Below, piece by piece: positions 25,500 to 38,302 of a DNA stretch of 56,194 nt. Position 1 is the stretch's first letter. The number at the start of each line of letters is the position of its first letter. Source of the stretch: Terrimicrobiaceae bacterium. Its GTDB lineage: Bacteria > Verrucomicrobiota > Verrucomicrobiia > Chthoniobacterales > Terrimicrobiaceae. The notes beneath the pieces are model-generated. The model made no database searches and was not told the DNA's origin. It saw only the letters and a list, made by a program, of their open reading frames with translations. The stretch is taken from the NCBI GenBank assembly GCA_036525175.1, contig DATDAX010000076.1, positions 1 through 56,194 of the forward strand, in the 5' to 3' direction. The position numbers and the translations under genes are program-made.

Positions 25500-26624
25500 A
25501 TGAGTATCCAAAGAAAACTCGACAAAGCACCCCCCTACAAGCTGCTCGCCTGCGACGGCGGCGGAATCCGCGGAACCATCTCCATCGAAATCCTCGCGAA
25601 AATCGAAGACGAGCTCCGTGCCAGCAGCGGAAAGCCCAGTCTCGTGCTCGCCGATTACTTCGATTATGTGGCTGGTACAAGCACCGGCGCTATTATTGCC
25701 ACGCTGGTGGCGCTCGGTTACGACGTCGCCACGATCCGCGACTTTTACCTAAAAAGCGGCGCGGAAATGTTCGAGCCTGCCGCACTTTGGGAACGTCTGC
25801 ACACCAAGTTCGACTCGGACAATCTGTCCCGGATGCTTAAGGAAATCATCGGCGAGCACGAAACCCTCGGCTCGGACAAATTCAAGACACTCCTGATGGT
25901 CGTGCTGCGCAACGCCACCACCGATTCGCCATGGCCGATTTCCAACAATCCCAAGGCCAAATACAACGACCGGGAGACGCGCCGCGACGATAGCAACCTC
26001 AACCTGCCGCTTTGGCAACTCGTCCGCGCTAGCACCGCCGCGCCGACGTTCTTCCCGCCGGAAACAATCCAGGTCGGCACCCAACGCTTCGTCTTCGTCG
26101 ATGGCGGCGTGACGATGTATAACGACCCTGCGTTCCAGCTCTTCCTCATGGCAACGACGGAGCCTTACAAGCTCTGCTGGGAAACGGGCCGCGAAAAGAT
26201 GCTCCTCGTGTCGGTCGGGACCGGTGCGAGCGCCGACGCAAATTCCAAGCTCACGCCGCGAGAGATGAGCCTGCTTTACAATGCGAGCCACATCCCCTCG
26301 GCGCTAATGGCCGCAGCGCTTCACGAGCAGGATTTCTTGTGTCGCACGTTTGGTGACTGCCTGGCCGGTGGCCCGCTGGACCGCGAAATCGGCGACATGA
26401 TCGGCAGAGGCATCCCGGGGCTCGAAAAGCTTTTCACTTACGTTCGCTACAACGCGGATCTTTCGCGCGGAGGGCTCGATGCACTCGGCCTGCAGGGCAT
26501 CAATCCTGAGCATGTCCAACAGATGGATTCTGTGGATCACATCGGCGAGATGCAGCAGGTCGGCCGCGCCGCCGCCGAGCGTTACGTCCATACAAAACTC
26601 CACTTCGCCGCCTTCCCAGCCTAA
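25500..26624 (+). CDS. Patatin-like phospholipase
   Basis: Has the oxyanion motif CDGGGIRG, the nucleophile elbow GTSTG (Ser codon 25680-25682) and the catalytic-dyad Asp in FVDGGVTMYNDP. Confidence 0.9.
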   Translation: MSIQRKLDKAPPYKLLACDGGGIRGTISIEILAKIEDELRASSGKPSLVLADYFDYVAGTSTGAIIATLVALGYDVATIRDFYLKSGAEMFEPAALWERLHTKFDSDNLSRMLKEIIGEHETLGSDKFKTLLMVVLRNATTDSPWPISNNPKAKYNDRETRRDDSNLNLPLWQLVRASTAAPTFFPPETIQVGTQRFVFVDGGVTMYNDPAFQLFLMATTEPYKLCWETGREKMLLVSVGTGASADANSKLTPREMSLLYNASHIPSALMAAALHEQDFLCRTFGDCLAGGPLDREIGDMIGRGIPGLEKLFTYVRYNADLSRGGLDALGLQGINPEHVQQMDSVDHIGEMQQVGRAAAERYVHTKLHFAAFPA

Positions 26625-26631
26625 CTTAGCC

Positions 26632-28707
26632 ATGCCTGCCACAAACACCCTCTGCCGCGCCTTCGTCGTGATGCCATTCGGAAAAAAGGAGGTACCGAAG
26701 GATCTGTTGAAACAGCCAAAGGTCGAAGTGACCTCCGAAGCACTCGCCTTGCAGGAGGCGCTGAAAGTCGATTTCGATGTCCTCTACGAGAAGCTCCTCG
26801 GGCCCGCGCTGCGCGAGGCGGGGTGCGAGCCTTTCCGCGCGACGGACGAGCAAGGCGCGGGCGACATCCGCAAGGACATGTTCTTCGAGCTGGTAACCGC
26901 CGACCTGGTGCTCGCCGACATTTCAATCCTCAATGCCAACGTTTTCTACGAGTTGGGCGTGCGGCATGCCGTCGGTCCACGCGGCGTGATCAGCGTGCAC
27001 GGCGGCTGGGCGAGCCGACCTTTCGACGTGGCACCGGATCGCACCTTCAACTACGACGGGCAACTCTTCATCGCCGACCTCACTCGCGACGCAGCGTGGG
27101 AAGTGCGTGTCTCGAAAGAAGTGAGCAAACTCGGTGCTGTCTTGCGCAGCGCCATTGCCAATGATGAACAGGAGATCGGCAGCCCCGTTTACAGCCTTGT
27201 GGAAGGACTAAAACCCGTCGACTGGAGCGGGATCAGCACTGCGCGGGCAAAATATTTCCAGAGTATCTCCGAAGAATGGCGTCAGCGTGTGAAGGTGGCA
27301 CGCAAAGAGCGCCATCCGGGCGACATCCTCACGCTCGCCGGCGACATGCCTACCCGGCTGCACCGTAAGCAACTGCTCTGGCAATGCGCTCGCGCGCTCG
27401 TCGAGATCCATCGCTTCGAGGCGGCGCGCGGCGTCCTCGATGATCTTCTGGAAATGGACCGCGACAACTTCGAGACGAAATCTCTGTTAGCACTGGTTGA
27501 TAACCGGACCGGCCGTTCAGCCCATGCGGAGGAAAGCCTCGATGCATTCGTCAACGCGCGGCCCGGCGACGGTGAAGCGCAAGGAATGCTCGGGCGCGTT
27601 TACAAAGACCTCTGGCGGGTCGCATGGAAGGACCAACCGACCCTGGAAGAGCGGCAGACGGCGGCGATGGAAAACGCCGTTATCGCCGCCAAAGCGATCG
27701 CCACCTATGAGCGCGCGCTGCGCCATAACTTGAGCAACTACTACAACGGCATCAACGTCGTTACCCTCCAGTCGCTGCTCGATTTCCTTGCCGAAAAGAC
27801 TGGCACGTTTCCCGCCGAGACTGGCATCACCGATCTGCCTGAACTGGTCTCCGTGGTTAGCGTCGCCACGCGGCAAGCGCTGAAAAATCCGGGCGAAGTC
27901 GCCTGGGCCGCGCCGACGCTTGGTGAGCTTGAACTCGTCCGCGGCAACGGTCCCGAATCCTTGCGACGCTATCAACAAGCGGCCAATGCGCCCGGTGTTC
28001 CATATTTCGAGATTGATTCCATGCTCGGTCAGCTCCGGCTGTTCGAGGGGCTTGGCTTCCGGGCAGAGGCTGTGGCACCGGTGATCAAGCTGCTCGAGAA
28101 GAAGCTCGCCCAGCTGGGAAATCCCCTGCCCACCTTCGGCAAAGTGGTCGTATGCAGCGGACACATGATCGACGCGCCCAGCCGCGAGAATCCCCGCTTC
28201 CCAACAAGCAAGGAAAGGCCCGTGCGCGAGAGGATCGCGGCGCAGCTGGCCGCTTGGGGCGTCGGCAAGGGCGACCTCGCCATCTGCGGCGGAGCATGCG
28301 GCAGCGATATCCTCTTCGCCGAGGAATGCCAGCGCCTCGGCGCTTCCGTACGCCTCCTGCTCGCCCTGCCGCGCGCTGAGTTCGTGGCAAAGTCGATCGC
28401 CTTTGCCGGTTACGAGTGGGTACAGCGGTTCGATCAACTTGCCAAAACCTGCGAAGTGGCCGAGCAGACCAGCCGGCTCGGGAATCCACCTGCGGGACTT
28501 GATGTCTTCAGCCGCTGCAATCTCTGGATCCTCAACTCGGCGCGTGTCGAGATTGGGCCCGCCAGTCAGTTATATTCCGTTCTTATCTGGGACGAAAAGC
28601 CGACCGGCGACGGCCCCGGCGGGACCTCCGACTTCGCGACGCGCGTCCGGGAACTCGGCGGAGTCGTTGAGGTCATCAACCCGATGAAATTTCCGGAGCC
28701 GGATTGA
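26632..28707 (+). CDS. Three-domain protein: N-terminal nucleoside-2-deoxyribosyltransferase/TIR-like Rossmann domain, central TPR (DUF4071/ASK1-like) region, C-terminal SLOG/LOG-like Rossmann domain
   Basis: The N-terminus has FVVMPFGKK...DLVLADISILNANVFYELGVRHA. The middle has GMLGRVYKDLW and NYYNGINVVTL. The C-terminus has VVVCSGHMID...LAICGGACGSDILFAEEC...VRLLLALP. The ATG at 26632 lies 7 nt after the patatin stop. Domain names are from memory, not a search. Confidence 0.6.
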   Translation: MPATNTLCRAFVVMPFGKKEVPKDLLKQPKVEVTSEALALQEALKVDFDVLYEKLLGPALREAGCEPFRATDEQGAGDIRKDMFFELVTADLVLADISILNANVFYELGVRHAVGPRGVISVHGGWASRPFDVAPDRTFNYDGQLFIADLTRDAAWEVRVSKEVSKLGAVLRSAIANDEQEIGSPVYSLVEGLKPVDWSGISTARAKYFQSISEEWRQRVKVARKERHPGDILTLAGDMPTRLHRKQLLWQCARALVEIHRFEAARGVLDDLLEMDRDNFETKSLLALVDNRTGRSAHAEESLDAFVNARPGDGEAQGMLGRVYKDLWRVAWKDQPTLEERQTAAMENAVIAAKAIATYERALRHNLSNYYNGINVVTLQSLLDFLAEKTGTFPAETGITDLPELVSVVSVATRQALKNPGEVAWAAPTLGELELVRGNGPESLRRYQQAANAPGVPYFEIDSMLGQLRLFEGLGFRAEAVAPVIKLLEKKLAQLGNPLPTFGKVVVCSGHMIDAPSRENPRFPTSKERPVRERIAAQLAAWGVGKGDLAICGGACGSDILFAEECQRLGASVRLLLALPRAEFVAKSIAFAGYEWVQRFDQLAKTCEVAEQTSRLGNPPAGLDVFSRCNLWILNSARVEIGPASQLYSVLIWDEKPTGDGPGGTSDFATRVRELGGVVEVINPMKFPEPD

Positions 28708-28786: not shown

Positions 28787-31597
28787 TCAATCGTCCGATA
28801 CGCCTTCGCCGGGAGGAAGCTCTGCGAATGTGCGCCGGTAGGGGAGTGTTCCGAAGAAGCGTTTCCATTCGGCGAGTGAGAGATTTCGATTCGCCCGGCG
28901 GGCCGCCCGCCGCTGCCACGTGTCGAGACTGGCATCAAGCAAGAAAAGCCCGGGAGGATTATTGAGACCCACAGCCAGCGTTTTCCCATCCGGGCTGAAG
29001 GCGATCGCATTTACCGTGAAATATTCTCCTTCGGTGAAGGCTGAGACACCCAAGGGTTGACGGCTTTCGGCATCGACGAAGCGCAATGTGCCCCCGAATC
29101 CCGCCATCACGAGAGTCTTGCCGTCGGGGCTAAACGAGAGTCCGGAGACCCTGTTGACAAAGCTCCGGGGTAGTTCGCCACGAGGGCGATGGCTTGCAAC
29201 GTCCCAGAGCAACACGCCGCCTGCGTCATCGCCGGTGCATAGCACCTTACCCGTGGGATCGAAGGTAGCGCTCCAGACAGCGGCGAGATGCCCCGGAAGT
29301 GGAGAGCCCTGAGGCCGGCGGGTGCGCGGATCCCAGAGTCGGACGTTTTTATCATCCCCACCGGAGGCCAGCACCGTTCCGTCGGAGCTGAAGGCGACGC
29401 AGTAAACGCCGCCTTTATGCCCCTCCAATGATTCACCGAGGGGTGACCGCGCTTGTGCGTCCCAGAAACGCAGGGTGCCGTCGCTGCCACCAGAGGCGAG
29501 GAGCTTGCCATCCGGGCTGGAAGCGATGCTCCAGATGTAACTCCCGGCCAGGTGGCCCACGAGAGGTGCGCCGATCGGCTGGCGCGTCACCGCATTCCAA
29601 AGCCGTACCGTGCCGTCCTGGCAGCCCATCGCGAGCACCTTGCTCGCTCCAACGAAAGCGAGGCTTTGGACTCCATCCCAATACTCGAGTGTTCCGAGCT
29701 TTTTGCGCGCCCTCGCATCGAAAATCTCAACGTGTTCGCCGGAGACGGCGAGCAAGGTCCCATCTTTGCTAAAGGCCAAGTGGGAAGTCCGCCCACCAAT
29801 TTGTTCACCCAAGAGAGGGGCAGGTTCGACTTCCCAAAGCCGAATGGTCCCGTCTTTGGCTCCGACGGCGATCTGCCGGCTATCCGGGCTCACCGTGAAG
29901 CTGGCCATCTCACCGACGAAGATCGGCTGCCCGATGAAGGTGGCATGCTCCCAATCGTAGCGATGAATGGCTCCGTCCAGGCCTCCCCAGGAGAGGATCT
30001 TGCCATCGGCGCTAAAAGCGAGATGCAACACCCACCCGGAGCGGCCGACAATAGGCTCGCCGATGGGCTGGCGACGAACAACGTCCCAAAGACGCACAAC
30101 TCCCGTACGATCGCCGGACGCAATGACTTTCCCATCAGGACTGAAGGCGAGCTGCGTGATCCATTCAGTATGCCCAGTAAGTTTCCCAAGTGGTTGGCGC
30201 GTGGCGATTTCCCAGAGCCAAAGTTCCTCGCGAACGTCGAGCGCCAGCAACTTGCCATCCCGACTAAAAGCGACACACGCGGGCTCGCCCGCCCCGAACT
30301 GCGGCTGCCAGGCCGCCCCTAGCCCCAGGATCGGCTCGCCAATGCGTTCTCCAGTAGCGGCATTGCGCAGGGAAAGGTCTACCACATTGCTGACAGCGAG
30401 GGATTTGCTGTCAGGGCTGAAGACGACGGAGGTGACCGTGCCGCCGAAGCGAACGGCCTCCCCACGGAGCCTGCGCGCCGAAACATCCCAGATGCAAAAG
30501 TCGCCGTCCTGAGTGCCCGCAGCCACGCTCGCACCATCCGGACTGAAGCTGAGGCAGCGGACTTCGTTTGAACTGCCCGAATGGCGTTGCTCGAAAACGT
30601 GAAGTGGTGCAGCGACTTGACGCCGTTGCTTCCAGTCCCATAAGCGCACGCTTCCATCGAAACCGCCAGAGACCAGAGTGGACCCATCGGGGCTGAACGC
30701 AATTGAGGTCACCGGCCCCCGATGCCCGTGCAGGAAGGTGGAGAGTCCCGGCTCCATTTGGAGCGCGGAAAGGAGCGTATTCCGCGCCTCGGCGGTATCG
30801 GCAGCACGACACGCCTCGACGCCGAGGAGCAGTGCGAGCGGAAGCTGATCGCGTAGATAGGAGAGGCCAAAGCCAGCCAGCCGTCCGGCGCCTGCGATTC
30901 GCGCCTGCGACTGGGCCTCGTTGCGCTGCGACCAGGCGAGCACCGCCAAAATCAGCGAGACGACCAGGCCCGCCGACACCGCTCCGAGAGTGATCCGCTG
31001 TCTATTAGCAGCAGCTTTGCGGCTGGCGATAATATATCCGGTCTGAAGCGCAGTAGGCTGCCGTTCCTTGTCCGTGCCGGCCTGCGCGAGCCATTGCTCG
31101 GCATCGCGCAGATCGTCTCCACGAAGGACAAAGCTGTTGTTTTTGCCTTTGGCTTCCCATTCGATCGCGCGCGTGAGCAGACGGGTGTGCGCGTGAACCC
31201 ATGCGAGGTCGATATCGAGCGCAGTGATCAGCGTCTCGATCGCCTTGGCGAAATCGTCGGTCTCGCGGCAAAAAATCCAGTTCAGCTTCGCGAGCGCCTC
31301 CGGCACATCAGCGGCATTCACGTCGCGAGCGACGACCGGCACCATCCGCTTGTTGTGCGCCGCGGCGTGCGCGATCTCACGCCCGCAGACAACTGACGCG
31401 ATCGAATCCGGCGTCAGCACAAAAACAAATGTATCAGCCGCTTCGATCGCGCCGTAAATCGCTCTCATGAACTCCTCGGTGGGCCGGATGCCTTCCCAGT
31501 CCACCCATGCCTCGCGACCGCGACGTTTCAGCGCCTCATCCAACTGTTGGACGAACTCCTTGTCCTTGCGCGAGTAGGAAATGAAAACGTCAGCCAC
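28787..31597 (-). CDS. TIR domain - single TM helix - WD40 beta-propeller protein (paralogue A)
   Basis: GTG start. The TIR domain has DVFISYSRKD...FVFVLTPDS..S..CGREI (Glu74 codon 31376-31378). A hydrophobic helix ITLGAVSAGLVVSLILAVLAW lies at about 30932-30994. More than 12 canonical WD40 units follow (GH.G.V.S.AFSPDG..L.SG..DG..RLWD). Confidence 0.9.
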   Translation of the reverse strand: MADVFISYSRKDKEFVQQLDEALKRRGREAWVDWEGIRPTEEFMRAIYGAIEAADTFVFVLTPDSIASVVCGREIAHAAAHNKRMVPVVARDVNAADVPEALAKLNWIFCRETDDFAKAIETLITALDIDLAWVHAHTRLLTRAIEWEAKGKNNSFVLRGDDLRDAEQWLAQAGTDKERQPTALQTGYIIASRKAAANRQRITLGAVSAGLVVSLILAVLAWSQRNEAQSQARIAGAGRLAGFGLSYLRDQLPLALLLGVEACRAADTAEARNTLLSALQMEPGLSTFLHGHRGPVTSIAFSPDGSTLVSGGFDGSVRLWDWKQRRQVAAPLHVFEQRHSGSSNEVRCLSFSPDGASVAAGTQDGDFCIWDVSARRLRGEAVRFGGTVTSVVFSPDSKSLAVSNVVDLSLRNAATGERIGEPILGLGAAWQPQFGAGEPACVAFSRDGKLLALDVREELWLWEIATRQPLGKLTGHTEWITQLAFSPDGKVIASGDRTGVVRLWDVVRRQPIGEPIVGRSGWVLHLAFSADGKILSWGGLDGAIHRYDWEHATFIGQPIFVGEMASFTVSPDSRQIAVGAKDGTIRLWEVEPAPLLGEQIGGRTSHLAFSKDGTLLAVSGEHVEIFDARARKKLGTLEYWDGVQSLAFVGASKVLAMGCQDGTVRLWNAVTRQPIGAPLVGHLAGSYIWSIASSPDGKLLASGGSDGTLRFWDAQARSPLGESLEGHKGGVYCVAFSSDGTVLASGGDDKNVRLWDPRTRRPQGSPLPGHLAAVWSATFDPTGKVLCTGDDAGGVLLWDVASHRPRGELPRSFVNRVSGLSFSPDGKTLVMAGFGGTLRFVDAESRQPLGVSAFTEGEYFTVNAIAFSPDGKTLAVGLNNPPGLFLLDASLDTWQRRAARRANRNLSLAEWKRFFGTLPYRRTFAELPPGEGVSDD

Positions 31598-31760
31598 GGC
31601 ACTGGATGCTGTTTGCCACTAAGTTCCGTCGTTGGCAGCCCAGAGCATTTGGACACGCCTCAGTGCGCGCCCTACCAGCGCCAGTCCGAAAGTCCCCGCC
31701 TTTCATGGCGGCGATTACATGCCCCATTTTCGCTGAGCGCAACGGCAAATCTCGCCGCCG
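30930..31760. repeat. Duplicated segment, copy A (5' leader + TIR + linker + TM of the TIR genes)
   Basis: Aligns by eye along its length with 35093-35925 at high nucleotide identity, including about 165 nt upstream of the GTG start. Confidence 0.85.
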
Positions 31761-32011: not shown

Positions 32012-32692
32012 ATGTTCAGCCACGCTTCCAAACTTCCTGCAGTCCTGATCGCGTGCTGTGTGGCCGTCACCCTCGGTGCAGCCGGCGCGTGTGATGGCCC
32101 GCGCAAGGTGCGCGAGGCGACCGTCGCGAAGATCAAGGCATTCATCAACGACCAGCAAATGACAGTGCTGACCTTCGCCGGCTATTCAGGGGCAGAGTAT
32201 GAGGACCCGCAGACGATGTTGGCGCACGCTTCACGCGTCCTCGACGGGCTGGACCCGGCGAAAACATTAATCAATATCGGTGCCACGGAGGTGGGAATCG
32301 GCGCCGTTTACGAGCTCTCAAAGCGAAAGGGATTCACAACCATGGGCATCGTCTCCACCCTTGCCCGCGATGAGCGTGTTCCACTCTCGACGTGCGTCGA
32401 TTATGTGTTCTACGTCAAAGACAGTCACTGGGGCGGAAAGGTTCCCGGAACCGATCATCTTTCGCCCACCTCGGCCGCACTGGTCGAGTGCAGCACGTCT
32501 TTCGTTGCCATTGGCGGAGGCGAAGCCGCCAGGGACGAGATGCTCGCAGCACGTAAGGCTGGCAAGCCTGTTGCCTTCATTCCTGCCGACATGAATCACC
32601 GGATCGCTCGAGAGAAGGCACAGAAAAAAGGCCAGCCCGAACCGACCGACTTTCGAGGTGCCGCACATGGTTCGCTCGCTAAAGGCATCTAG
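32012..32692 (+). CDS. Exported (probable lipoprotein) SLOG/LOG-like Rossmann-fold protein
   Basis: The N-terminus MFSHASKLPAVLIACCVAVTLGAAGAC looks like a signal or lipoprotein leader. The body has LTFAGYSGAEY..., GATEVGIGAVYELSKRKGFTTMGIVS and FVAIGGGEAARDEMLAARKAGKPVAFI, reminiscent of the LOG/TIGR00725 layout. The function call is tentative. Confidence 0.5.
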   Translation: MFSHASKLPAVLIACCVAVTLGAAGACDGPRKVREATVAKIKAFINDQQMTVLTFAGYSGAEYEDPQTMLAHASRVLDGLDPAKTLINIGATEVGIGAVYELSKRKGFTTMGIVSTLARDERVPLSTCVDYVFYVKDSHWGGKVPGTDHLSPTSAALVECSTSFVAIGGGEAARDEMLAARKAGKPVAFIPADMNHRIAREKAQKKGQPEPTDFRGAAHGSLAKGI

Positions 32693-32907: not shown

Positions 32908-35760
32908 TTATTTCTGCAGGCGGGTCTTTTGCGGCATCGTACCTGGACCGTAACGACTCCATTCGTCAGATGTCAGATCGCTCGCCACTTTGGCAGAGGT
33001 CTCGCGGAGGACACCATCAAGAGTGATTGGATGAAGGGTGGGCTCGGGAAAACCGTTCTGCCACCTGTAAGTCAGAATATACCTTCCATCCAGGCTGAAA
33101 CCCGCGAAACGATCACCCCGCGCGACTGGAACTTTGAAGTTTACTCCGAGCGTGTTCGCGTCATAGACGTAGATGACGCTGGGGAATGCGGCAGCTAGGA
33201 GCGTTCCGTCCGGACTAAAACTCAAGAAGTCGTCACGGTCGCCCTCCATGAATCCGCCAAAACCCAGCGGTTCCGATCGGACCGTTGGATTCTTTGCGCC
33301 GATTTTCCAAATCCCAATCATGTTCTCCTGGAGCACCGCGCATCGCCCTTTGTCAGGACTAATCGCGAAGTTCGATCCTTCTGGAATGTCTGACACGGAT
33401 TCGGTCCTCCAATCGAACAGCACGGACTTAAGCGGGACCCCATCCTGGATTTGCTCGGCGATGACGAAGTTGGACCCGGACAGGAACCACAATCGGTTGA
33501 AAGGCTTTACGTTGGGGATCAGCTGCGGGGGTGCCTTATGATCCAGTCGATAGATCTGGGACGAAACCAGCACCCGATTTTCGTCCGGCCCAAACGCCAG
33601 GGGCCCGCCGCCGGGAATCGTGATGTTTCGTTTGGTGGCCATTTCCGTTATTACCCATCCCTTGCGTTGTAAAAGCCGCGCTACAAAGCGGCCGCTCGGT
33701 GACACCACAAGCGCTCCGGCGCCTTCCCCTTTTTCCTCAGCCTGCCACAGGCGTGTTCCACCCGCATCATAGACATTCATCGAGCCGTCTGCTCCATCCA
33801 CCACAACGACACGCGCGTCCACTGGCAGGACCGCAAACTTGCTGGGCAACGTCCAACGGCTCGCCGGGGTAATGGGGACCCATCGTTCCGGGGCGAGCGA
33901 CACAACCTGAATCTTGGCGGGAAGCCGATCCCTGGTCTGGGCTGGGACACGCGAGCTCACGGCCAGGAATCGACCATCGGCACTGAAAGCGGCGCCATTC
34001 ACCGACTGCCTTTTATCGAGTGTGAAGTGGAACACCAAGGCGCTCCGAGTCAGGTCGAAGACCGAAAAGGTCTCCGGGTTTACCGCGGAGTATCCCGCAA
34101 CATACCGGCCAGTTGGACTCACGGCAGGGAGAAGCTGAAAGGTCTCGCCTTGCTTCGATGCGAACGGCAGGTCGAACGAATCCCCACCGGATGTCTTGCG
34201 TAGCTGAGCGCCCCTGACGTACACATCGCCGCCCGCGATGACGCGAGAAGGGTTGGACAAGCTCTCGACAGGCGTGGTGTTAAGCAGGCTGCCATCAGCA
34301 GCGCTTAGAATCGAATGCTGACGAGAACTGATGGCGATCACACACTTGCCATCTCCGCTGAACAAGGCTTCCTCATAATTATCGCTCGCCGGATGCCGAA
34401 CACGCCAGCGAACCGAGCCGTCCGCGACGTTGAAAGCTGTTAAGCCTTCATCGGTTTTCGCGACGACCGTCGCAGCGTCTGGACTGAGCACGACGACGCC
34501 CGCCTCCGACGGGAACATGATGCGCGACCGAACCGTGCCGGCTGTCGGATCGACCGTCCAGATCCCAGCTCGCGAAACCACGAGCAAGTTCCCCTTCAAA
34601 TCGAACGCTGCGATATCGAGATCCTCCGGAAGCGGGACGATTTGTTTGTTTCCGCTCTCGATGTCTAGAACTTCGATCGCAGATCCACCTTTTTGGTAGA
34701 CGACGACACGGTCGCCGGTTGGGCTCATAGCGAGTGTGAAGGCGGATTGATCCGCCTGGACCTCGTGGAGCTGTCGGAGATCGGGCGCTGAAAACACATG
34801 GACATGGCGATCACCGCAGAGCGTAACCAGTCTCCGTGCATCTGGAGTGAACACGATGGCAACTGCGACAGAATCCGTTGCGACATCCGTCAAAATCCTC
34901 GGCATCTGACTGACGGCTGTGTGCCAGGCTGTGTATCCAGCTTCAGTCCACGTCTCTCTGAGCGATTCAGCCGCAAGCAGGCTTCCAATTCGGAGGCCCC
35001 GACTGGGCTCCATGTCTGCGGCCTTGACAGCCTGTCCGGCCAGGAAGCGCGCCGCGGACATCTTGCCTTGCTTGATAGCATCCTGACGCGCAAACCAAGC
35101 GACTACTGATAAAATGACAGCAACGACCAGGCCGAAGCTGAGTGCTCCGAGCGTGATCAACTGCCTTTTAGCGGCGGCCTTGCGGCTGGCGATGATGTAT
35201 TCGGTCTGAAGCGCCGTGGGCTGACGTTCCTTGTCCGTGCCGGCCTCTGCGAGCCATTGCTCGGCATCACGCAGATCGTCTCCGCGAAGGACAAAGCTGT
35301 TGTTTTTGGCTTTGGCCTCCCACTCGACGGCACGCGTGAGGAGGCGCGTGTGAGCCCGGACCCAGTCGATGTCCGTGTCGAGGGCGCTGATCAGCGTCTC
35401 GGTCGCCATTTGAAAATCGTCTGATTCACGAAAAAAGATCCAGTTCAGCTTCGCCAGCGCTTCGGGGACGGCCCCGGCGTTCACCTCGCGTGCAACGATA
35501 GGAATCATCCGTTTGTTCTGCGCCAGGGCATGCGCGATTTCCTTCATGCAAACGACCGATGAGACGGAGTCAGGAGAGAGCACAAAGAGGAACGTGTCTG
35601 TTCCTTCGATCGCGCTGTAAATCGCTCTCATGAACTCCTCGGTCGGCAGAATGCCTTCCCAGTCCACCCAGGCCTCGCGACCGCGGCGTTTCAGCGCCTC
35701 ATCCAACCGTTGGACGAACTCCTTGTCCTTGCGCGAGTAGGAAATGAAAACGTCAGCCAC
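32908..35760 (-). CDS. TIR domain - single TM helix - divergent beta-propeller protein (paralogue B)
   Basis: The first ~220 aa are near-identical to paralogue A (Glu74 codon 35539-35541). The C-terminal ~720 aa have only degenerate propeller blades (FSGDGKCVIA, FSADGRFLAVSS, FSPDGTLLAAA, FSLDGRYILT) and do not align with A. Confidence 0.85.
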   Translation of the reverse strand: MADVFISYSRKDKEFVQRLDEALKRRGREAWVDWEGILPTEEFMRAIYSAIEGTDTFLFVLSPDSVSSVVCMKEIAHALAQNKRMIPIVAREVNAGAVPEALAKLNWIFFRESDDFQMATETLISALDTDIDWVRAHTRLLTRAVEWEAKAKNNSFVLRGDDLRDAEQWLAEAGTDKERQPTALQTEYIIASRKAAAKRQLITLGALSFGLVVAVILSVVAWFARQDAIKQGKMSAARFLAGQAVKAADMEPSRGLRIGSLLAAESLRETWTEAGYTAWHTAVSQMPRILTDVATDSVAVAIVFTPDARRLVTLCGDRHVHVFSAPDLRQLHEVQADQSAFTLAMSPTGDRVVVYQKGGSAIEVLDIESGNKQIVPLPEDLDIAAFDLKGNLLVVSRAGIWTVDPTAGTVRSRIMFPSEAGVVVLSPDAATVVAKTDEGLTAFNVADGSVRWRVRHPASDNYEEALFSGDGKCVIAISSRQHSILSAADGSLLNTTPVESLSNPSRVIAGGDVYVRGAQLRKTSGGDSFDLPFASKQGETFQLLPAVSPTGRYVAGYSAVNPETFSVFDLTRSALVFHFTLDKRQSVNGAAFSADGRFLAVSSRVPAQTRDRLPAKIQVVSLAPERWVPITPASRWTLPSKFAVLPVDARVVVVDGADGSMNVYDAGGTRLWQAEEKGEGAGALVVSPSGRFVARLLQRKGWVITEMATKRNITIPGGGPLAFGPDENRVLVSSQIYRLDHKAPPQLIPNVKPFNRLWFLSGSNFVIAEQIQDGVPLKSVLFDWRTESVSDIPEGSNFAISPDKGRCAVLQENMIGIWKIGAKNPTVRSEPLGFGGFMEGDRDDFLSFSPDGTLLAAAFPSVIYVYDANTLGVNFKVPVARGDRFAGFSLDGRYILTYRWQNGFPEPTLHPITLDGVLRETSAKVASDLTSDEWSRYGPGTMPQKTRLQK

Positions 35761-35925
35761 GGCACCGGATGCTGTTTGCCTCTAAGTGCCGTCGTTGGCA
35801 GCCCAGAGCATTTGGACATGCCTCAGTGCCCACGCTACCGGTGCCAGTCTGAAAGTCCCCCCTTGCATGGCAGCGATTACACGTCCCCTTTGCACTGAGC
35901 GCAACAAATTACGTAGGAATAGGCA
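35093..35925. repeat. Duplicated segment, copy B
   Basis: See copy A at 30930-31760. Confidence 0.85.
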
Positions 35926-36164: not shown

Positions 36165-36956
36165 TTACGCAGCAGCTCCCCGAATGAGGCGTTCCAACCT
36201 TGCCGTGAGTTTCTCAAAATGTGTTCCAGACCAGTAAATCCGACCGCAGCCGCAGCACCGGCGGAAATTATCGTAAAAGCGCAAAGTGAGCGGTTCGCCA
36301 GAAAGCCGGGTGAGCACTTCTGACTTCGGCACGGATAGCAGCAATGAGTTGCAGCGGAGACATCGCTGATAGGGCGCAAGGTCGCCGGACTCGGGAGCGA
36401 GGCCGAAACGTCGGAGCACCTCGCGCGCTTGTTCCTCCGCATCCACGCTGCGAGGGCTGTAACCGTGCCGGACGATGGAATGCATCAGCAGGCGGCGATC
36501 GCGAGTCAGCAGCGCGCGATCTTCCGCGACCATGATTTCGAGTAACCGACGATCGTCGGCGTCGCGCTCATAGGCAGTATCAATCCCAAGCAGCCGTAGG
36601 TTGCGCGCGAGTTTGCCGAGGTGACCATCGGCCACGAACCGACACCAATGCTTCGTCTGCAACCTCGGTGCCCGCGGCAGAACCTCTGCTGGTGCAGGAA
36701 CGGCGAAGACTTCCACCCGCCCAGGAGCCTGCACCTGCCAGGCAAAGGTGACCGCTGTCCGCTCGCCGGTGCAAAGATCCGTCGCAACGATCAGATCCAC
36801 CTCCGGGTGCGGCACCCCACACGCCTCAATCACATCCTTGATCGCCGTCTTTTCCCACAACGCACGCAAGAGGCAATTCTCGCTGCGCAAGCCCCGCACC
36901 CCACGACGTAGGAAAAACCCGAGTTCAGCGGAAAAGCTGAGTTCCACCTCAAACAT
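36165..36956 (-). CDS. Mut7-C RNase domain protein (PIN-like nuclease with N-terminal ubiquitin-like domain and C-terminal zinc ribbon)
   Basis: Contains RFVADGHLGKLARNLRLLGIDT...LLTRDRRLL and a terminal C.RCN...CCGCGRIYW.G.H, which matches the PF01927-type layout as I recall it. Confidence 0.75.
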   Translation of the reverse strand: MFEVELSFSAELGFFLRRGVRGLRSENCLLRALWEKTAIKDVIEACGVPHPEVDLIVATDLCTGERTAVTFAWQVQAPGRVEVFAVPAPAEVLPRAPRLQTKHWCRFVADGHLGKLARNLRLLGIDTAYERDADDRRLLEIMVAEDRALLTRDRRLLMHSIVRHGYSPRSVDAEEQAREVLRRFGLAPESGDLAPYQRCLRCNSLLLSVPKSEVLTRLSGEPLTLRFYDNFRRCCGCGRIYWSGTHFEKLTARLERLIRGAAA

Positions 36957-37126: not shown

Positions 37127-38302
37127 TCAATATGAGAAACTTTCTTGCGGAATTCCCATCCCCCACAGCGAATACGGATCGGCCAGCTCGTTCACGCCCT
37201 CGCCCGCGGCTGAACAGCCCGGCGCGAGGTGTGCCACCGCGCAGGCTCCGAGCGCGGTCACGTAGAGGCCCTGGCGGGTGGCCAGGACGCGATGGGTCAT
37301 GCTGTTTTGTGATGGCAACGCGATGGTCTGTTGCGACTCGATCTGCGCATAACCCCCGCTAAATCCGATCTCGAAGACCGCGTTGAGTGCCATCATCGCG
37401 GCCATTGACGAGCCGAGCAGGTAGATGCGCTCGGGCGCACCTGGCTGGTCGGCGTCGGGTCCAAACGCGAGGTGGATCAGCCCGGACCCCATCGCGGCGC
37501 CGCGATCGAGGTTGAATCGCGAGATCCGGCCCGAGTCGTCGATTCGCCCGAAGCCCCCGTTGCCGCCGCCGGAGCCTCCGAGCGCCGTGAACCACACGTT
37601 TTTATCGGGTCCGGCAATCAGGCCCACTGGCGTTTTGCCGAGACTTTCGGGCAGGGGGAGGATGCTCGTTGTGCCGTCTGGCCGCAGCTGCAAGATCGCA
37701 CTCGACTGGTCGAGGCTGGCATAGACATCGTCGCTTAGCGGGTGAACGGCGACGAAGATTGGACGCGGCGGGCACGGGTGGACAGCGAACTCATGCGGCT
37801 CCTCGATTCCGACTCGGACCACGTGGTGGCTGTCCTTACAAGTCGTCCACACGTGCTCACCATGCTCAATGATTCCATGGGGACCGCGGGCGGGGGCCGG
37901 CAACGCGATGCGCTCGACGATTCGCGGCGGCGCATCGAGATTCCCGGCTACCGGATCGATCCGCAGAAGTTCGGAGGTGAATTGTAGCGTCACCCAAACG
38001 TGCCCCGGGTGGCGACGCGAGACGCACAACCCGTGGAGCCCGTCGTACGCGCTGTTGACGATGTGCCGAGCGACCGCGAGCGGCCGACCGCTGACTGGAT
38101 CCACTCGAATCTTGACGAGCGCGCCGCTCGGTTGCTGAGACACGAGCAGCAACTCCTCGGCCACCTGGACGATCTCGTGAGTCTGCGAGCTGGCGGGAAG
38201 CGGATATTCAATCGCGGATTTGAGTGAGAAGGAGGGGGCGGTCGGGTTCATGGGGCAGGCTATGGGGCCGCGATTCCGCGTGTCAAACCACTCCATGTGC
38301 AA
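37127..38302 (-). CDS. Beta-propeller protein, virginiamycin B lyase (Vgb)/SMP-30-like
   Basis: Has repeated blades such as GPHGIIEHGEHVWTT and LIAGPDKNVWFTALGG...GRIDDSGRISRF. The start may be the internal ATG at 38251. Confidence 0.55.
   Translation of the reverse strand: MHMEWFDTRNRGPIACPMNPTAPSFSLKSAIEYPLPASSQTHEIVQVAEELLLVSQQPSGALVKIRVDPVSGRPLAVARHIVNSAYDGLHGLCVSRRHPGHVWVTLQFTSELLRIDPVAGNLDAPPRIVERIALPAPARGPHGIIEHGEHVWTTCKDSHHVVRVGIEEPHEFAVHPCPPRPIFVAVHPLSDDVYASLDQSSAILQLRPDGTTSILPLPESLGKTPVGLIAGPDKNVWFTALGGSGGGNGGFGRIDDSGRISRFNLDRGAAMGSGLIHLAFGPDADQPGAPERIYLLGSSMAAMMALNAVFEIGFSGGYAQIESQQTIALPSQNSMTHRVLATRQGLYVTALGACAVAHLAPGCSAAGEGVNELADPYSLWGMGIPQESFSY

What the first reader, a model, noticed from the sequence alone, without database searches (positions are those of the whole stretch)
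28787..31597. TIR - TM - WD40 protein with Toll-like-receptor topology and no NTPase
The protein has an N-terminal TIR domain (aa 1 to about 130) with the conserved catalytic-position Glu74 in CGREI. After a helical linker comes a single hydrophobic helix at aa ~202-222, preceded by basic residues (SRKAAANRQR). A ~700-aa canonical WD40 array follows. With no signal peptide and positive charge on the N-side, the predicted topology places the TIR domain in the cytoplasm and the propeller outside the membrane. That is the same logic as animal TLRs. It differs from cytosolic TIR-STAND (Avs/bNACHT) or Thoeris arrangements. An extracytoplasmic sensor driving an NADase or signal-generating TIR would be an unusual bacterial immune or signalling design.
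Basis: partly seen in the sequence, partly recalled or inferred. Interest (0 to 1): 0.8.

Follow-up and report, generated by a model that had tools for sequence, protein, structure and literature searches.

The report
Membrane-spanning TIR sensor in Thoeris-like system
A soil bacterium encodes a TIR immune-signalling domain joined by one membrane helix to a double WD40 propeller that probably faces the periplasm; its neighbour genes resemble Thoeris anti-phage effectors, so it looks like an outside-in variant of a known defence, not a new kind of system.

Summary
Window 28787-31597 (minus strand) encodes a 936-aa protein. It has a TIR domain (aa 4-124, catalytic-position Glu74 conserved), a conserved linker, one strongly hydrophobic helix (aa 202-222) and 14 WD40 repeats. 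It has no NTPase.

A paralog 1.3 kb away (32908-35760) has the same TIR-linker-TM cassette but a different propeller. The adjacent genes also matter: a patatin phospholipase and a [DNPH1-like glycosidase]-[TPR-S]-[YpsA-like SLOG] protein. These recur beside homologous TIR-TM-repeat genes in other Verrucomicrobiota, often with a SLATT pore protein. Such partners match the effectors of the recently described Thoeris types VII and VIII.

The family is very large (4,349 representative clusters at E<1e-30), and most members have one TM after the last TIR. N-in/C-out topology is supported indirectly:
- K/R bias across the TM
- CHASE2 and FGE-sulfatase domains after the TM in relatives
- a terminal Cys pair in many relatives
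- the published kinase-TM-WD40 precedent

Topology is not proven, and the window's own proteins lack the Cys pair.

Verdict: a Thoeris-like TIR signalling system with a membrane-spanning sensor. It is a new variant of a known kind, interesting and testable.

The parts
28787..31597 (-). Gene A: TIR - linker - TM - 14x WD40 - C-terminal tail protein, 936 aa (the finding)
   Evidence: ORF; Pfam TIR_2 and WD40; homologs with the same layout
31226..31588 (-). TIR domain, aa 4-124. The catalytic-position Glu74 codon is at 31376-31378
   Evidence: Pfam TIR_2 E 1.6e-25; AF2 model plus Foldseek hits to SARM1, SPARTA, AbTir and TLR TIRs; E74 invariant and aligned to the conserved Glu of TLR and Thoeris TIRs
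31052..31225 (-). Conserved linker, aa 125-182 (motifs D130, HTRLL 137-141, W147, LRG 158-160, DL..AE..L). It has no Pfam family and low AF2 confidence, and it repeats together with the TIR in multi-TIR relatives
   Evidence: Invariant columns; pLDDT<50; tandem TIR+linker units in relatives
30860..31051 (-). One continuous predicted helix, aa 183-246: basic juxtamembrane stretch, TM segment and post-TM helix
   Evidence: AF2 H183-246, with pLDDT >90 over aa ~200-280
30932..30994 (-). Transmembrane segment, aa 202-222 (ITLGAVSAGLVVSLILAVLAW), with conserved small residues G205 and G210
   Evidence: KD19 2.48, the only such segment; conserved position in homologs; G205, G210, L217 and A221 at least 90% conserved
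30731..30859 (-). Post-TM helical cap, aa 247-289 (LPLALLLGVEA...ARNTLLSALQ), leading into the propellers
   Evidence: AF2 helices 252-265, 269-281 and 283-289
28892..30718 (-). 14 WD40 repeats, aa 294-902, consistent with two 7-bladed propellers. This is the predicted extracytoplasmic sensor
   Evidence: Iterated self-profile finds 14 repeats; Pfam propeller families
28790..28891 (-). C-terminal tail with the RNLSLAEW...PYRR motif. Many relatives have a Cys pair flanking this motif, and both Cys are missing here
   Evidence: Tail comparison
32908..35760 (-). Gene B: paralog, 950 aa. It has the same TIR-linker-TM cassette (TM aa 201-221 = 35098-35160) followed by a divergent PQQ/WD40-like beta-propeller region
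   Evidence: ORF; TIR_2 E 2.3e-26 and PQQ_2 E 1.1e-10; BLASTP alignment nearly identical over aa 1-235 and divergent afterwards; KD19 2.55
30931..31743 (-). Duplicated cassette (copy A): 146-nt leader plus TIR, linker and TM, 82% DNA identity to 35094-35905. Homology ends at the C-terminal end of the TM helix
   Evidence: blastn of the two regions; leader alignment
25500..26624 (+). Patatin-like phospholipase, 374 aa, with intact GGGIRG, GTSTG and DGG motifs. Candidate membrane-degrading effector
   Evidence: Pfam Patatin E 3.4e-27; PADLOC phospholipase effector E 5.9e-43; NCBIfam CBASS_lipase E 2.4e-33, below cut-off; motifs; conserved beside TIR-TM-repeat homologs in 6 loci
26632..28707 (+). 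Partner protein, 691 aa (probable start at 26632; the ORF opens at 26479). Domains: DNPH1/CMP-hydrolase-like N-glycosidase (aa ~10-210), TPR-S (aa ~262-379) and YpsA-like SLOG (aa 494-691). It is ThsI-like
   Evidence: PF20308 TPR-S E 2.9e-15; profile hits to DNPH1/Rcl on the YELG motif, E 0.1-0.3; AF2 plus Foldseek to YpsA 2nx2, E 1.5e-4; conserved beside homologs in 8 loci

Best explanation
Gene A and its paralog B are the TIR (ThsB-like) sensor and signal-generating components of a Thoeris-like anti-phage or conflict system. They are built as single-pass type II membrane receptors.

Shown:
- An N-terminal TIR with the catalytic-position Glu.
- One TM helix.
- 14 WD40 repeats.
- A tandem paralog with a swapped propeller.
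- Conserved neighbourhood with a [CMP-hydrolase/DNPH1-like]-[TPR-S]-[SLOG] protein, a patatin and, in relatives, a SLATT protein.

Inferred mechanism:
1. The TIR and linker sit in the cytoplasm, and the double propeller sits in the periplasm.
2. Binding of an envelope-side ligand to the propellers changes the association of the TM and juxtamembrane helices. The ligand could be a phage part or an infection-induced envelope product. G205 and G210 in the TM are conserved small residues.
3. The TIR domains are brought together, which is the general requirement for TIR NADase activity.
4. The assembled TIRs convert NAD+ into an ADPR-derived messenger, with cADPR or an isomer the most likely.
5. The messenger is read by the TPR-S and/or SLOG domains of the partner protein.
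6. This turns on nucleotide hydrolysis by the partner's glycosidase domain and membrane attack by the patatin (by SLATT in relatives), stopping the infected cell.

The two paralogs would widen the range of ligands sensed while feeding one effector set.

Step probabilities (my estimates):
- TM with N-in/C-out topology: about 0.75
- catalytically active TIR: about 0.75
- functional coupling to the neighbours: about 0.75
- immune role: about 0.65
For: - Architecture.
- Catalytic Glu conserved and aligned to known TIRs.
- Sensor swap at the TM boundary between paralogs. Across homologs the post-TM region varies (WD40, PQQ-like, TPR, FGE-sulfatase, CHASE2).
- Synteny in genome loci: the TPR-S family occurs in 8 loci, patatin in 6 and DUF4231/SLATT in 8. 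An LSDAT(SLOG)-SLATT fusion sits directly upstream in L001. In L003 and L010 the order is TPR-S, SLATT, patatin, TIR-TM-WD40 on one strand with near-abutting genes. The window keeps the association despite a different gene order.
- Reciprocal scan: the TPR-S/SLOG plus patatin core recurs, and other TIR genes sit immediately upstream of it.
- Partner domains.
- Published systems: Thoeris VIII effector ThsI = CMP hydrolase + TPR, sensing cADPR. Thoeris VII effector = SLATT. Rare operons carry both. BcTir/Tpr 'core Tpr' assemblies include TIR, YspA and patatin genes.
- Topology. Precedent for periplasmic WD40/TPR/FGE arrays behind one TM in PVC-superphylum kinases.
- The host has an outer-membrane porin gene, so it has a periplasm.
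Against: - No experiment bears on topology, NADase activity, signalling or defence for any member of this family.
- The C-flank of the TM still carries about 3 K/R per 15 residues across the family.
- The window's own proteins have odd Cys counts and lack the terminal Cys pair. The closest clade shows no even-Cys bias.
- Several homologs (L005, L015) have only housekeeping neighbours, so the protein can also stand alone.
- Most TPR-S/patatin loci from metagenomes have no TIR-TM-repeat gene next to them.
- The window's TIR resembles the TIRs of SLOG-effector systems (type III TIR1, 4TM-SLOG) more than the sampled type VII/VIII TIRs. The messenger and the exact Thoeris type therefore cannot be assigned.
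- In the window the TIR genes are convergent with the patatin/TPR-S pair, not co-transcribed with it.
- PADLOC 2.0 has no model for the full protein or for the partner.
Confidence: 0.5

Rival explanations
1. Self-contained membrane sensor-effector. The protein senses through its propellers and kills or arrests the cell simply by depleting NAD+ through its own TIR (as in SARM1, SPARTA or TIR-STING), without signalling to the neighbours. On this view the neighbouring patatin/TPR-S genes form a separate defence system that happens to share the island.
For: Homologs with only housekeeping neighbours exist (L005, L015). Most TPR-S/patatin loci lack a TIR-TM-repeat gene. Structurally the TIR is close to the NAD-depleting TIRs of SARM1 and SPARTA. 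In the window the genes are convergent, not in one operon. Multi-TIR relatives with 3-8 tandem TIRs would suit bulk NADase activity.
Against: At least 11 of about 17 Verrucomicrobiota-type loci have a TPR-S, SLOG, SLATT or patatin gene next to the TIR-TM-repeat gene. In L003 and L010 they are in one near-abutting gene string. The association survives rearrangement in the window. These neighbour types are the ones shown or predicted to read TIR-made messengers.
Confidence: 0.2
2. Membrane-tethered but cytoplasm-facing sensor, or not a membrane protein at all. The hydrophobic helix would be a monotopic or re-entrant anchor, or a buried oligomerisation helix. Both the TIR and the WD40 propellers would be cytosolic, and the propellers would recognise intracellular phage proteins as in STAND/Avs-type sensors.
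For: All characterised bacterial immune WD40 and TPR sensors act in the cytoplasm. The window's proteins have odd Cys counts and no terminal Cys pair. The C-flank has 2-3 K/R. Exporting about 700 aa of propeller behind an internal signal-anchor is demanding. No topology predictor or experiment was available.
Against: The segment is 21-23 uninterrupted apolar residues, scores KD19 2.5, is flanked by charges on both sides and lies within one continuous 64-residue helix, which is a classic bitopic span. Its position and hydrophobicity are conserved in 112 of 150 representatives. K/R bias is N>C in 104 of 129. Relatives place CHASE2 and FGE-sulfatase domains after it. In relatives a terminal Cys pair is about 20-fold over shuffle expectation. 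Kinase-TM-WD40/TPR/FGE proteins of the same superphylum are predicted to have periplasmic arrays.
Confidence: 0.17
3. Non-immune envelope or cell-cell signalling receptor. It would be a housekeeping-type outside-in receptor, like the Ser/Thr kinase-TM-WD40 receptors of PVC bacteria. The TIR would act as a protein-interaction scaffold or regulatory NAD+ or nucleotide hydrolase for physiology, kin recognition or predation, not for phage defence.
For: The same TM-WD40/TPR/FGE chassis serves hundreds of kinases in PVC bacteria with no known immune role. The family is concentrated in soil, filamentous or social lineages (Verrucomicrobiota, cyanobacteria, Chloroflexi). A response regulator and a histidine kinase lie nearby in the window.
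Against: The recurrent neighbours are cell-killing effector types (patatin, SLATT) and messenger-sensor types (TPR-S, SLOG) typical of abortive-infection systems. Sensor-cassette swapping between tandem paralogs is typical of conflict systems. GmrSD and additional TIR genes are nearby in L004. The two-component genes are not conserved next to homologs.
Confidence: 0.13

Closest known systems
Thoeris anti-phage systems, especially type VIII (TIR + ThsI: CMP hydrolase-TPR), type VII (TIR + SLATT ThsH) and type III (several TIRs + SLOG effector); Yirmiya et al. preprint 10.64898/2025.12.03.692087
   Same: A TIR protein with the catalytic Glu is encoded beside a protein with a CMP-hydrolase/DNPH1-like domain plus the TPR-S repeat, and beside SLATT or SLOG proteins. 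There are several TIR genes per locus. The window's TIR profile best matches type III TIR1 (E 1e-12) and the TIRs of 4TM-SLOG systems.
   Different: Described ThsB proteins are small soluble proteins. Here the TIR is fused through a TM helix to about 700 aa of propeller that is predicted to be periplasmic. The partner carries an extra YpsA-like SLOG domain, and a patatin is added. The paper mentions neither WD40 nor TM segments on the TIR side. No activity data exist for this clade.
TPR-S / 'core Tpr' assemblies (Burroughs & Aravind 2020, J Bacteriol, not held; BcTir/Tpr preprint 10.1101/2023.05.26.542521)
   Same: An N-terminal NAD/nucleotide glycosidase-like domain plus TPR-S protein, accompanied by TIR, YspA-type SLOG and patatin genes. 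The window has all four.
   Different: In the window the YpsA-like SLOG is fused to the Tpr protein, and the TIR partner is a TM-WD40 receptor. [quoted passage not shown] I could not check the 2020 paper.
Animal Toll-like receptors
   Same: A single-pass membrane protein with a repeat-built ectodomain and a cytoplasmic TIR. Signalling presumably works through ligand-driven association. Structurally the TIR is close to the TLR1, TLR6, TLR10 and TLR15 TIRs.
   Different: The orientation is opposite: the TIR is N-terminal, there is no signal peptide, and the protein is type II. The ectodomain is WD40 propellers, not an LRR solenoid. The TIR keeps the catalytic Glu and most likely acts as an enzyme that makes a small messenger, not as a scaffold for adaptor TIRs. 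This is analogy, not homology of the whole protein.
Bacterial receptor Ser/Thr kinases with Pkinase-TM-WD40/TPR/FGE-sulfatase (PVC superphylum, PMC11032199). M. tuberculosis PknD with an extracellular beta-propeller is cited from my own knowledge
   Same: The same chassis: an N-terminal cytoplasmic catalytic domain, one TM, and a long C-terminal WD40, TPR or FGE-sulfatase array predicted to be periplasmic. The same three C-terminal domain types are found in this TIR family.
   Different: The output domain is a TIR instead of a kinase. The neighbours are cell-killing effectors.
STAND-type bacterial pattern-recognition receptors (Avs, bNACHT) with TIR effectors and WD40/TPR sensors
   Same: The TIR is at the N-terminus and repeat sensors are at the C-terminus. 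The sensors are diversified.
   Different: There is no NTPase module at all. A TM helix occupies the position of the switch.

Membership tests
TIR domain superfamily (enzymatic TIRs) | TIR fold (flavodoxin-like beta-alpha) | tested here: met
   Pfam TIR_2 E 1.6e-25. The AF2 model matches SARM1, SPARTA, AbTir and TLR TIR structures at E about 1e-6.
TIR domain superfamily (enzymatic TIRs) | Conserved catalytic Glu in helix alphaC | tested here: met
   E74 aligns with the conserved Glu of TLR 'YEL' and Thoeris III TIR1 'WEI'. It is invariant or at least 90% conserved in homolog alignments.
TIR domain superfamily (enzymatic TIRs) | NAD+ cleavage or messenger production | not testable with these tools
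   Needs a biochemical assay (wild type against E74A).
Thoeris-type TIR signalling system | TIR gene encoded next to an effector gene that carries a messenger-binding domain (SLOG, Macro, TPR, SLATT and others) | tested here: met
   In the window a TPR-S/SLOG protein and a patatin are adjacent. The same families plus SLATT sit next to homologs in at least 11 loci, and in L003 and L010 they form a single gene string.
Thoeris-type TIR signalling system | ThsI-type effector: CMP-hydrolase-like domain + TPR (type VIII) | tested here: inconclusive
   TPR-S is solid (PF20308, E 2.9e-15). The N-domain matches DNPH1/Rcl only at E 0.1-0.3, although all top hits agree on the YELG motif. No ThsI sequence was available for direct comparison.
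Thoeris-type TIR signalling system | TIR belongs to the clade of a defined Thoeris type | tested here: inconclusive
   Best match among 24 sampled TIRs is type III TIR1 (1e-12), then 4TM-SLOG TIRs. The sampled type VII and VIII TIRs score E 0.001-0.9. NCBIfam ThcB4 is far below its cut-off.
Thoeris-type TIR signalling system | Phage-triggered messenger and a defence phenotype | not testable with these tools
   Experimental.
Toll-like receptors | Signal peptide, N-terminal LRR ectodomain, TM, C-terminal TIR (type I) | tested here: not met
   No signal peptide, the TIR is N-terminal, and the ectodomain is WD40. It is not a TLR family member. The resemblance is topological only.
STAND NTPase receptors (Avs / bNACHT / NLR-like) | Central P-loop STAND NTPase module | tested here: not met
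   No NTPase Pfam family and no Walker A motif.
Single-pass N-in/C-out (type II) membrane receptor | One hydrophobic span of about 20 residues and no other | tested here: met
   KD19 2.48 at aa 202-222, the only such segment. It is conserved in homologs and lies inside one continuous AF2 helix.
Single-pass N-in/C-out (type II) membrane receptor | Positive-inside charge bias | tested here: met
   Window protein: 4 against 2 K/R. Family: 4.87 against 3.02, with N>C in 104 of 129. The sequences are related, so the statistic is inflated.
Single-pass N-in/C-out (type II) membrane receptor | C-terminal region shows extracytoplasmic hallmarks | tested here: inconclusive
   Family level: CHASE2 and FGE-sulfatase domains after the TM, a terminal Cys pair in 28 of 79 against 1.4 expected, and 61 even against 28 odd Cys counts. 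The window's proteins have 7 and 3 Cys and no pair, and the nearest clade shows no bias.
Single-pass N-in/C-out (type II) membrane receptor | Experimentally determined topology | not testable with these tools
   Needs PhoA/LacZ fusions or accessibility mapping. No DeepTMHMM or Phobius was available.

The most novel reading that the evidence does not exclude
This would be the first example of a bacterial TIR immune receptor that senses outside the cytoplasm. Periplasmic WD40 propellers would detect phage or envelope-derived ligands. They would transmit across the inner membrane through a conserved TM and juxtamembrane helix, assemble cytoplasmic TIR domains, and launch a cADPR-type messenger to ThsI-like, patatin or SLATT effectors. 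That is a transmembrane Thoeris. The sensor would be exchanged as a cassette at the TM boundary to diversify recognition. The family would then be a very large, unexplored class of bacterial surface-facing pattern-recognition receptors, convergent with TLR logic.
Probability: 0.35. Interest if true: 0.85.

Novelty: new variant of a known kind. Interest (0 to 1): 0.6.

Why it matters
Known bacterial TIR signalling (Thoeris, CBASS-TIR, SPARTA, Avs-TIR) starts from recognition inside the cytoplasm, after phage DNA or proteins have entered. A TIR whose sensor faces the periplasm would allow detection at the envelope stage. It would also show that the 'repeat ectodomain - one TM - cytoplasmic TIR' logic of animal TLRs arose independently in bacteria, here coupled to small-molecule messengers.

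The family is large (thousands of 50%-identity clusters, many with 3-8 tandem TIRs), and nothing I could find describes it. Its partners (ThsI-like, SLATT, patatin) now have experimentally characterised relatives. The hypothesis is therefore directly testable with standard topology reporters, NADase/LC-MS assays and phage challenge.

The finding also flags three uncharacterised pieces: a conserved linker domain that always travels with this TIR, a YpsA-like SLOG family with 931 hits and no Pfam model, and a Cys-stapled C-terminal cap on bacterial WD40 arrays.

Tried and rejected
- The search for homologous proteins with the N-terminal 290 or 235 aa timed out twice. With the TM module alone it returned only short fragments, so I could not show which other N-terminal domains share the TM-cap-WD40 cassette.
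- The exact protein is not on record in the assembly index, so the source genome was not identified.
- Burroughs & Aravind 2020 (J Bacteriol), which defined TPR-S, is not held. My statement of its content rests on citing papers and on memory.
- A profile search of the partner's C-domain against PDB sequences found nothing. The domain was resolved by AF2 plus Foldseek instead.
- Cys-parity test: positive family-wide, but not in the nearest clade or in the window proteins, so I treat it as suggestive only.
- The 146-nt conserved leader upstream of both paralogs is not found in any other locus, does not fold better than shuffles (z -0.98) and has no Rfam hit. I rejected it as a regulatory RNA.
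- There are no tRNA genes in the window to mark island borders.
- The 252-aa ORF next to a WD40 gene in L051 is a spurious Arg-rich frame, not a split TIR.
- The lipoprotein-like 226-aa gene, the Mut7-C RNase, the Vgb-like gene and the response regulator are not conserved next to homologs, so I did not count them as parts of the system.
- PADLOC has no full-length model for this protein. The 'HEAT-ARM_XIII' hit is only a WD40 repeat match.

Full report
1. What is there

The finding's coordinates delimit a real ORF on the minus strand: 28787-31597, 936 aa, GTG start.

- Pfam places a TIR_2 domain at aa 4-124 (E 1.6e-25) and a long WD40 array after about aa 290. No NTPase family is found, and there is no Walker A motif.
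- A Kyte-Doolittle scan finds one hydrophobic segment, ITLGAVSAGLVVSLILAVLAW (aa 202-222, KD19 2.48). It has four K/R in the 15 residues before it and two after it.
- An iterated self-profile resolves exactly 14 WD40 repeats (aa 294-902), which fits two seven-bladed propellers.
- An AlphaFold2 model of aa 1-290, built on 18 homologs (mean pLDDT 79.5), gives a confident TIR fold and a low-confidence linker (aa 131-180).
- The model then has one continuous helix, aa 183-246, that runs through the hydrophobic segment (pLDDT >90 from about aa 200), followed by a small helical cap.
- Foldseek places the TIR next to Hydra TRR-2, SARM1, SPARTA, AbTir and TLR TIR structures.
- Glu74 aligns with the conserved Glu of TLR and Thoeris TIRs and is invariant among close homologs.

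(a) A paralog lies 1.3 kb away (32908-35760, minus strand, 950 aa).
- Its first ~235 residues (TIR, linker, TM) are nearly identical to gene A.
- The rest is a divergent PQQ/WD40-like propeller region.
- At DNA level the duplicated block runs from 146 nt upstream of the start codon to the C-terminal end of the TM helix (82% identity) and stops there. The sensor has therefore been exchanged as a cassette at the membrane boundary.

(b) The genes on the other side are a patatin phospholipase and a 691-aa partner protein.
- The patatin (25500-26624) has intact GGGIRG, GTSTG and DGG motifs.
- The partner (probable start 26632, end 28707) has a TPR-S domain (PF20308, E 2.9e-15).
- Its N-terminal domain gives weak but uniform profile hits to DNPH1/Rcl N-glycosidases on the catalytic YELG motif.
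- Its C-terminal domain has no Pfam family but 931 homologs, mostly stand-alone proteins of ~194 aa. It folds like B. subtilis YpsA and other SLOG/LOG proteins.

The rest of the window is ordinary chromosomal metabolism and includes an OprB outer-membrane porin gene, so the host is a diderm with a periplasm.

3. Relatives

A scan of one genome per species found 23 loci. Most are from soil Verrucomicrobiota (Chthoniobacterales, Udaeobacter, Terrimicrobiaceae), with a few from cyanobacteria and Chloroflexi.
- All full-length homologs keep the hydrophobic segment at the same place.
- What follows the TM varies: WD40, PQQ-like propellers, TPR, or regions without a Pfam match.

The exhaustive search of 1.84 billion representatives gave 25,275 hits, 4,349 of them at E<1e-30.
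- Many of the best hits are 1,000-2,300-aa proteins with 3-8 tandem TIR+linker units.
- Of the top 150, 112 have exactly one TM, placed right after the last TIR+linker unit.
- In 100 hits with at least 150 residues after the TM, 79 are WD40-type. The others include TPR, FGE-sulfatase, CHASE2 and WG-repeat domains.

The architecture is therefore widespread, not a rarity.

4. Topology

No topology predictor was available, so I gathered indirect evidence.

For N-in/C-out:
- The segment has the length, hydrophobicity and charged borders of a bitopic span, and it is embedded in a single long helix.
- In 129 single-TM relatives the N-flank has 4.87 K/R and the C-flank 3.02, with N>C in 104 cases. 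The sequences are related, so the p-value is inflated.
- The post-TM domain repertoire includes CHASE2, an extracytoplasmic sensor by definition, and FGE-sulfatase.
- A published analysis of PVC-superphylum Ser/Thr kinases predicts the same three C-terminal domain types (WD40, TPR, FGE-sulfatase) to be periplasmic behind a single TM (PMC11032199).
- 28 of 79 WD40-type relatives end with two Cys 17-32 residues apart in a conserved tail, against 1.4 expected from shuffles. In 17 of them these are the only Cys after the TM. This explains an even-Cys bias of 61 to 28 that the N-terminal parts do not show and suggests a disulfide staple.
- G205 and G210 in the TM are conserved. This hints that the helix does more than anchor the protein.

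Against:
- The window's own proteins have 7 and 3 Cys after the TM and have lost the tail pair.
- The closest clade shows no parity bias.
- The C-flank is not free of positive charge.

I put N-in/C-out at about 0.75.

5. Gene neighbourhood and the link to Thoeris

Clustering all ORFs around the 23 homologs, without a prior, recovers three recurrent neighbour families:
- the TPR-S protein, in 8 loci
- the patatin, in 6 loci
- a ~150-aa DUF4231/SLATT two-TM protein, in 8 loci

Further details:
- In L003 and L010 the order is TPR-S protein, SLATT, patatin, TIR-TM-WD40 (then a second TIR-TM gene in L003), on one strand with near-abutting genes.
- In L001 an LSDAT(SLOG)-SLATT fusion sits directly upstream.
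- In several loci the partner is split into a glycosidase+TPR-S gene and a separate SLOG gene.
- The window keeps the patatin and the fused partner but in convergent orientation, and it lacks SLATT.
- In the reciprocal scan starting from the partner protein, TPR-S/SLOG plus patatin is the stable core. Other TIR genes (TIR-TPR-like, TIR-FGE-sulfatase) sit immediately upstream in L035, L036, L038, L040, L043 and L048. TIR-TM-repeat genes are not adjacent there.
- Some TIR-TM-repeat genes stand alone among housekeeping genes (L005, L015). L004 has a GmrSD nuclease and an extra small TIR nearby.

Literature:
- The Sorek-lab preprint 10.64898/2025.12.03.692087 defines Thoeris type VII (TIR + SLATT effector ThsH) and type VIII (TIR + ThsI, a CMP-hydrolase domain plus the TPR predicted by Aravind). 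Both respond to canonical cADPR.
- It notes rare operons with both effectors and lists 'SLOG Patatin' candidates.
- The BcTir/Tpr preprint describes 'core Tpr' assemblies with TIR, YspA and patatin genes.
- Neither text mentions WD40 or a TM on the TIR protein, although the BcTir/Tpr figure legend lists 'TM'.
- Among 24 typed TIR domains from the Sorek table, the window's TIR profile is closest to type III TIR1 (E 1e-12) and to TIRs of 4TM-SLOG systems. It is not close to the sampled type VII/VIII TIRs.

I therefore call the locus Thoeris-like and do not assign a type.

6. Mechanism

Best-supported reading: genes A and B are ThsB-like sensor and signal generators built as type II membrane receptors.
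1. A ligand binds the periplasmic propellers.
2. The TM and juxtamembrane helices re-associate.
3. The cytoplasmic TIRs assemble and convert NAD+ into an ADPR-derived messenger.
4. The TPR-S and/or SLOG domains of the partner read the messenger.
5. The partner's glycosidase and the patatin (SLATT in relatives) arrest or kill the cell.

Shown: the domains, the conservation, the sensor swapping and the synteny. Inferred: the topology, the catalysis, the messenger, the coupling and the immune role.

Rivals:
- a self-contained NAD+-depleting sensor-effector (0.2)
- a cytoplasm-facing or non-membrane protein (0.17)
- a non-immune envelope receptor (0.13)

7. Comparison and novelty

- It is a member of the TIR superfamily.
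- It meets the genomic criteria of a Thoeris-type system.
- It is not a TLR: the orientation is opposite, the ectodomain is WD40, and the TIR is probably enzymatic.
- It is not a STAND receptor, because it has no NTPase.
- It shares its chassis with the kinase-TM-WD40 receptors of PVC bacteria.

I found no description of a TM-propeller-fused ThsB-like protein in seven full-text searches. However, I could not read the 2020 paper that defined TPR-S.

I rate it a new variant of a known kind, interest 0.6. The architecture is common and unstudied. The outside-in idea would be surprising for bacterial TIR immunity and is easy to test. At present everything beyond the anatomy and the synteny is inference.

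Noticed in passing
window 32012-32692 (+): A 226-aa ORF lies between the two TIR-TM-propeller genes, on the opposite strand. It has an N-terminal signal-peptide-like segment (MFSHASKLPAVLIACCVAVTLGAAGAC...) and only sub-threshold SLOG hits (LDcluster4 E 0.011, LSDAT_prok E 0.015). A secreted SLOG-like protein would be odd. It is not conserved next to homologs.
   Followed up: partly
window 36165-36956 (-): A Ub-Mut7C + Mut7-C (PIN-like) RNase protein sits immediately beyond paralog B, and a Vgb-lyase-like beta-propeller protein lies at 37127-38302. They may belong to the same defence islet, but they are not conserved beside homologs.
   Followed up: partly
window 31598-31743 and 35761-35905 (-): The ~146-nt leaders upstream of the two paralogs are more alike (about 93% over the last 100 nt) than the coding cassette (82%). 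There is no Rfam hit, the fold is no better than shuffles (z -0.98), and the leader is absent from other loci. Local gene conversion or a shared promoter/5'UTR is likely.
   Followed up: yes
proteins P0001-P0007, P0010-P0014 and others: Many relatives (1,000-2,300 aa) carry 3-8 tandem copies of the TIR+linker unit before the single TM and the repeat array. These are built-in TIR oligomers on a membrane receptor.
   Followed up: partly
window 31052-31225 (-), aa 125-182 of gene A: A strongly conserved ~60-residue linker (HTRLL, W147, LRG, DL..AE..L, P181) always accompanies this TIR, including in the tandem-TIR relatives. It has no Pfam family, and AF2 confidence is below 50. It may be an unrecognised regulatory or oligomerisation element.
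   Followed up: partly
Each has a Cys pair about 21-28 residues apart, a candidate disulfide staple. The window proteins keep the motif (RNLSLAEW / DLTSDEW) without the Cys.
   Followed up: partly
window 28111-28704 (+); family of P0185-P0304: The C-terminal domain of the partner protein defines a family of at least 931 mostly stand-alone ~194-aa 'hypothetical proteins' with no Pfam model. It has invariant SGHMID, GG.CG.D and WDE.PTGDGPGGT motifs and a YpsA-like SLOG fold.
   Followed up: yes
L001:5888-7714 (+); L004:3496-4875 (-) and L004:10807-11418 (+); L035:6068-7300 (+): Other partners sit beside TIR-TM-repeat or related TIR genes: an LSDAT(SLOG)-SLATT-SLATT fusion (L001), a GmrSD nuclease plus a small extra TIR protein (L004), and a TIR-FGE-sulfatase protein next to the stand-alone SLOG gene (L035).
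   Followed up: partly
window 26479-26631 (+): The long ORF of the partner gene opens at 26479 and overlaps the patatin gene's 3' end by 146 nt. The conserved protein starts at the ATG at 26632, 8 nt after the patatin stop codon, so patatin and partner probably form one transcription unit.
   Followed up: partly
window 44747-48526 (+): A 1,259-aa ORF has no Pfam match at E<1e-5. It is followed by a 1,015-aa Laminin_G_3 protein and a class-3 lipase in a lower-GC stretch (0.49-0.54 at 50-54 kb). I did not examine these further.
   Followed up: no
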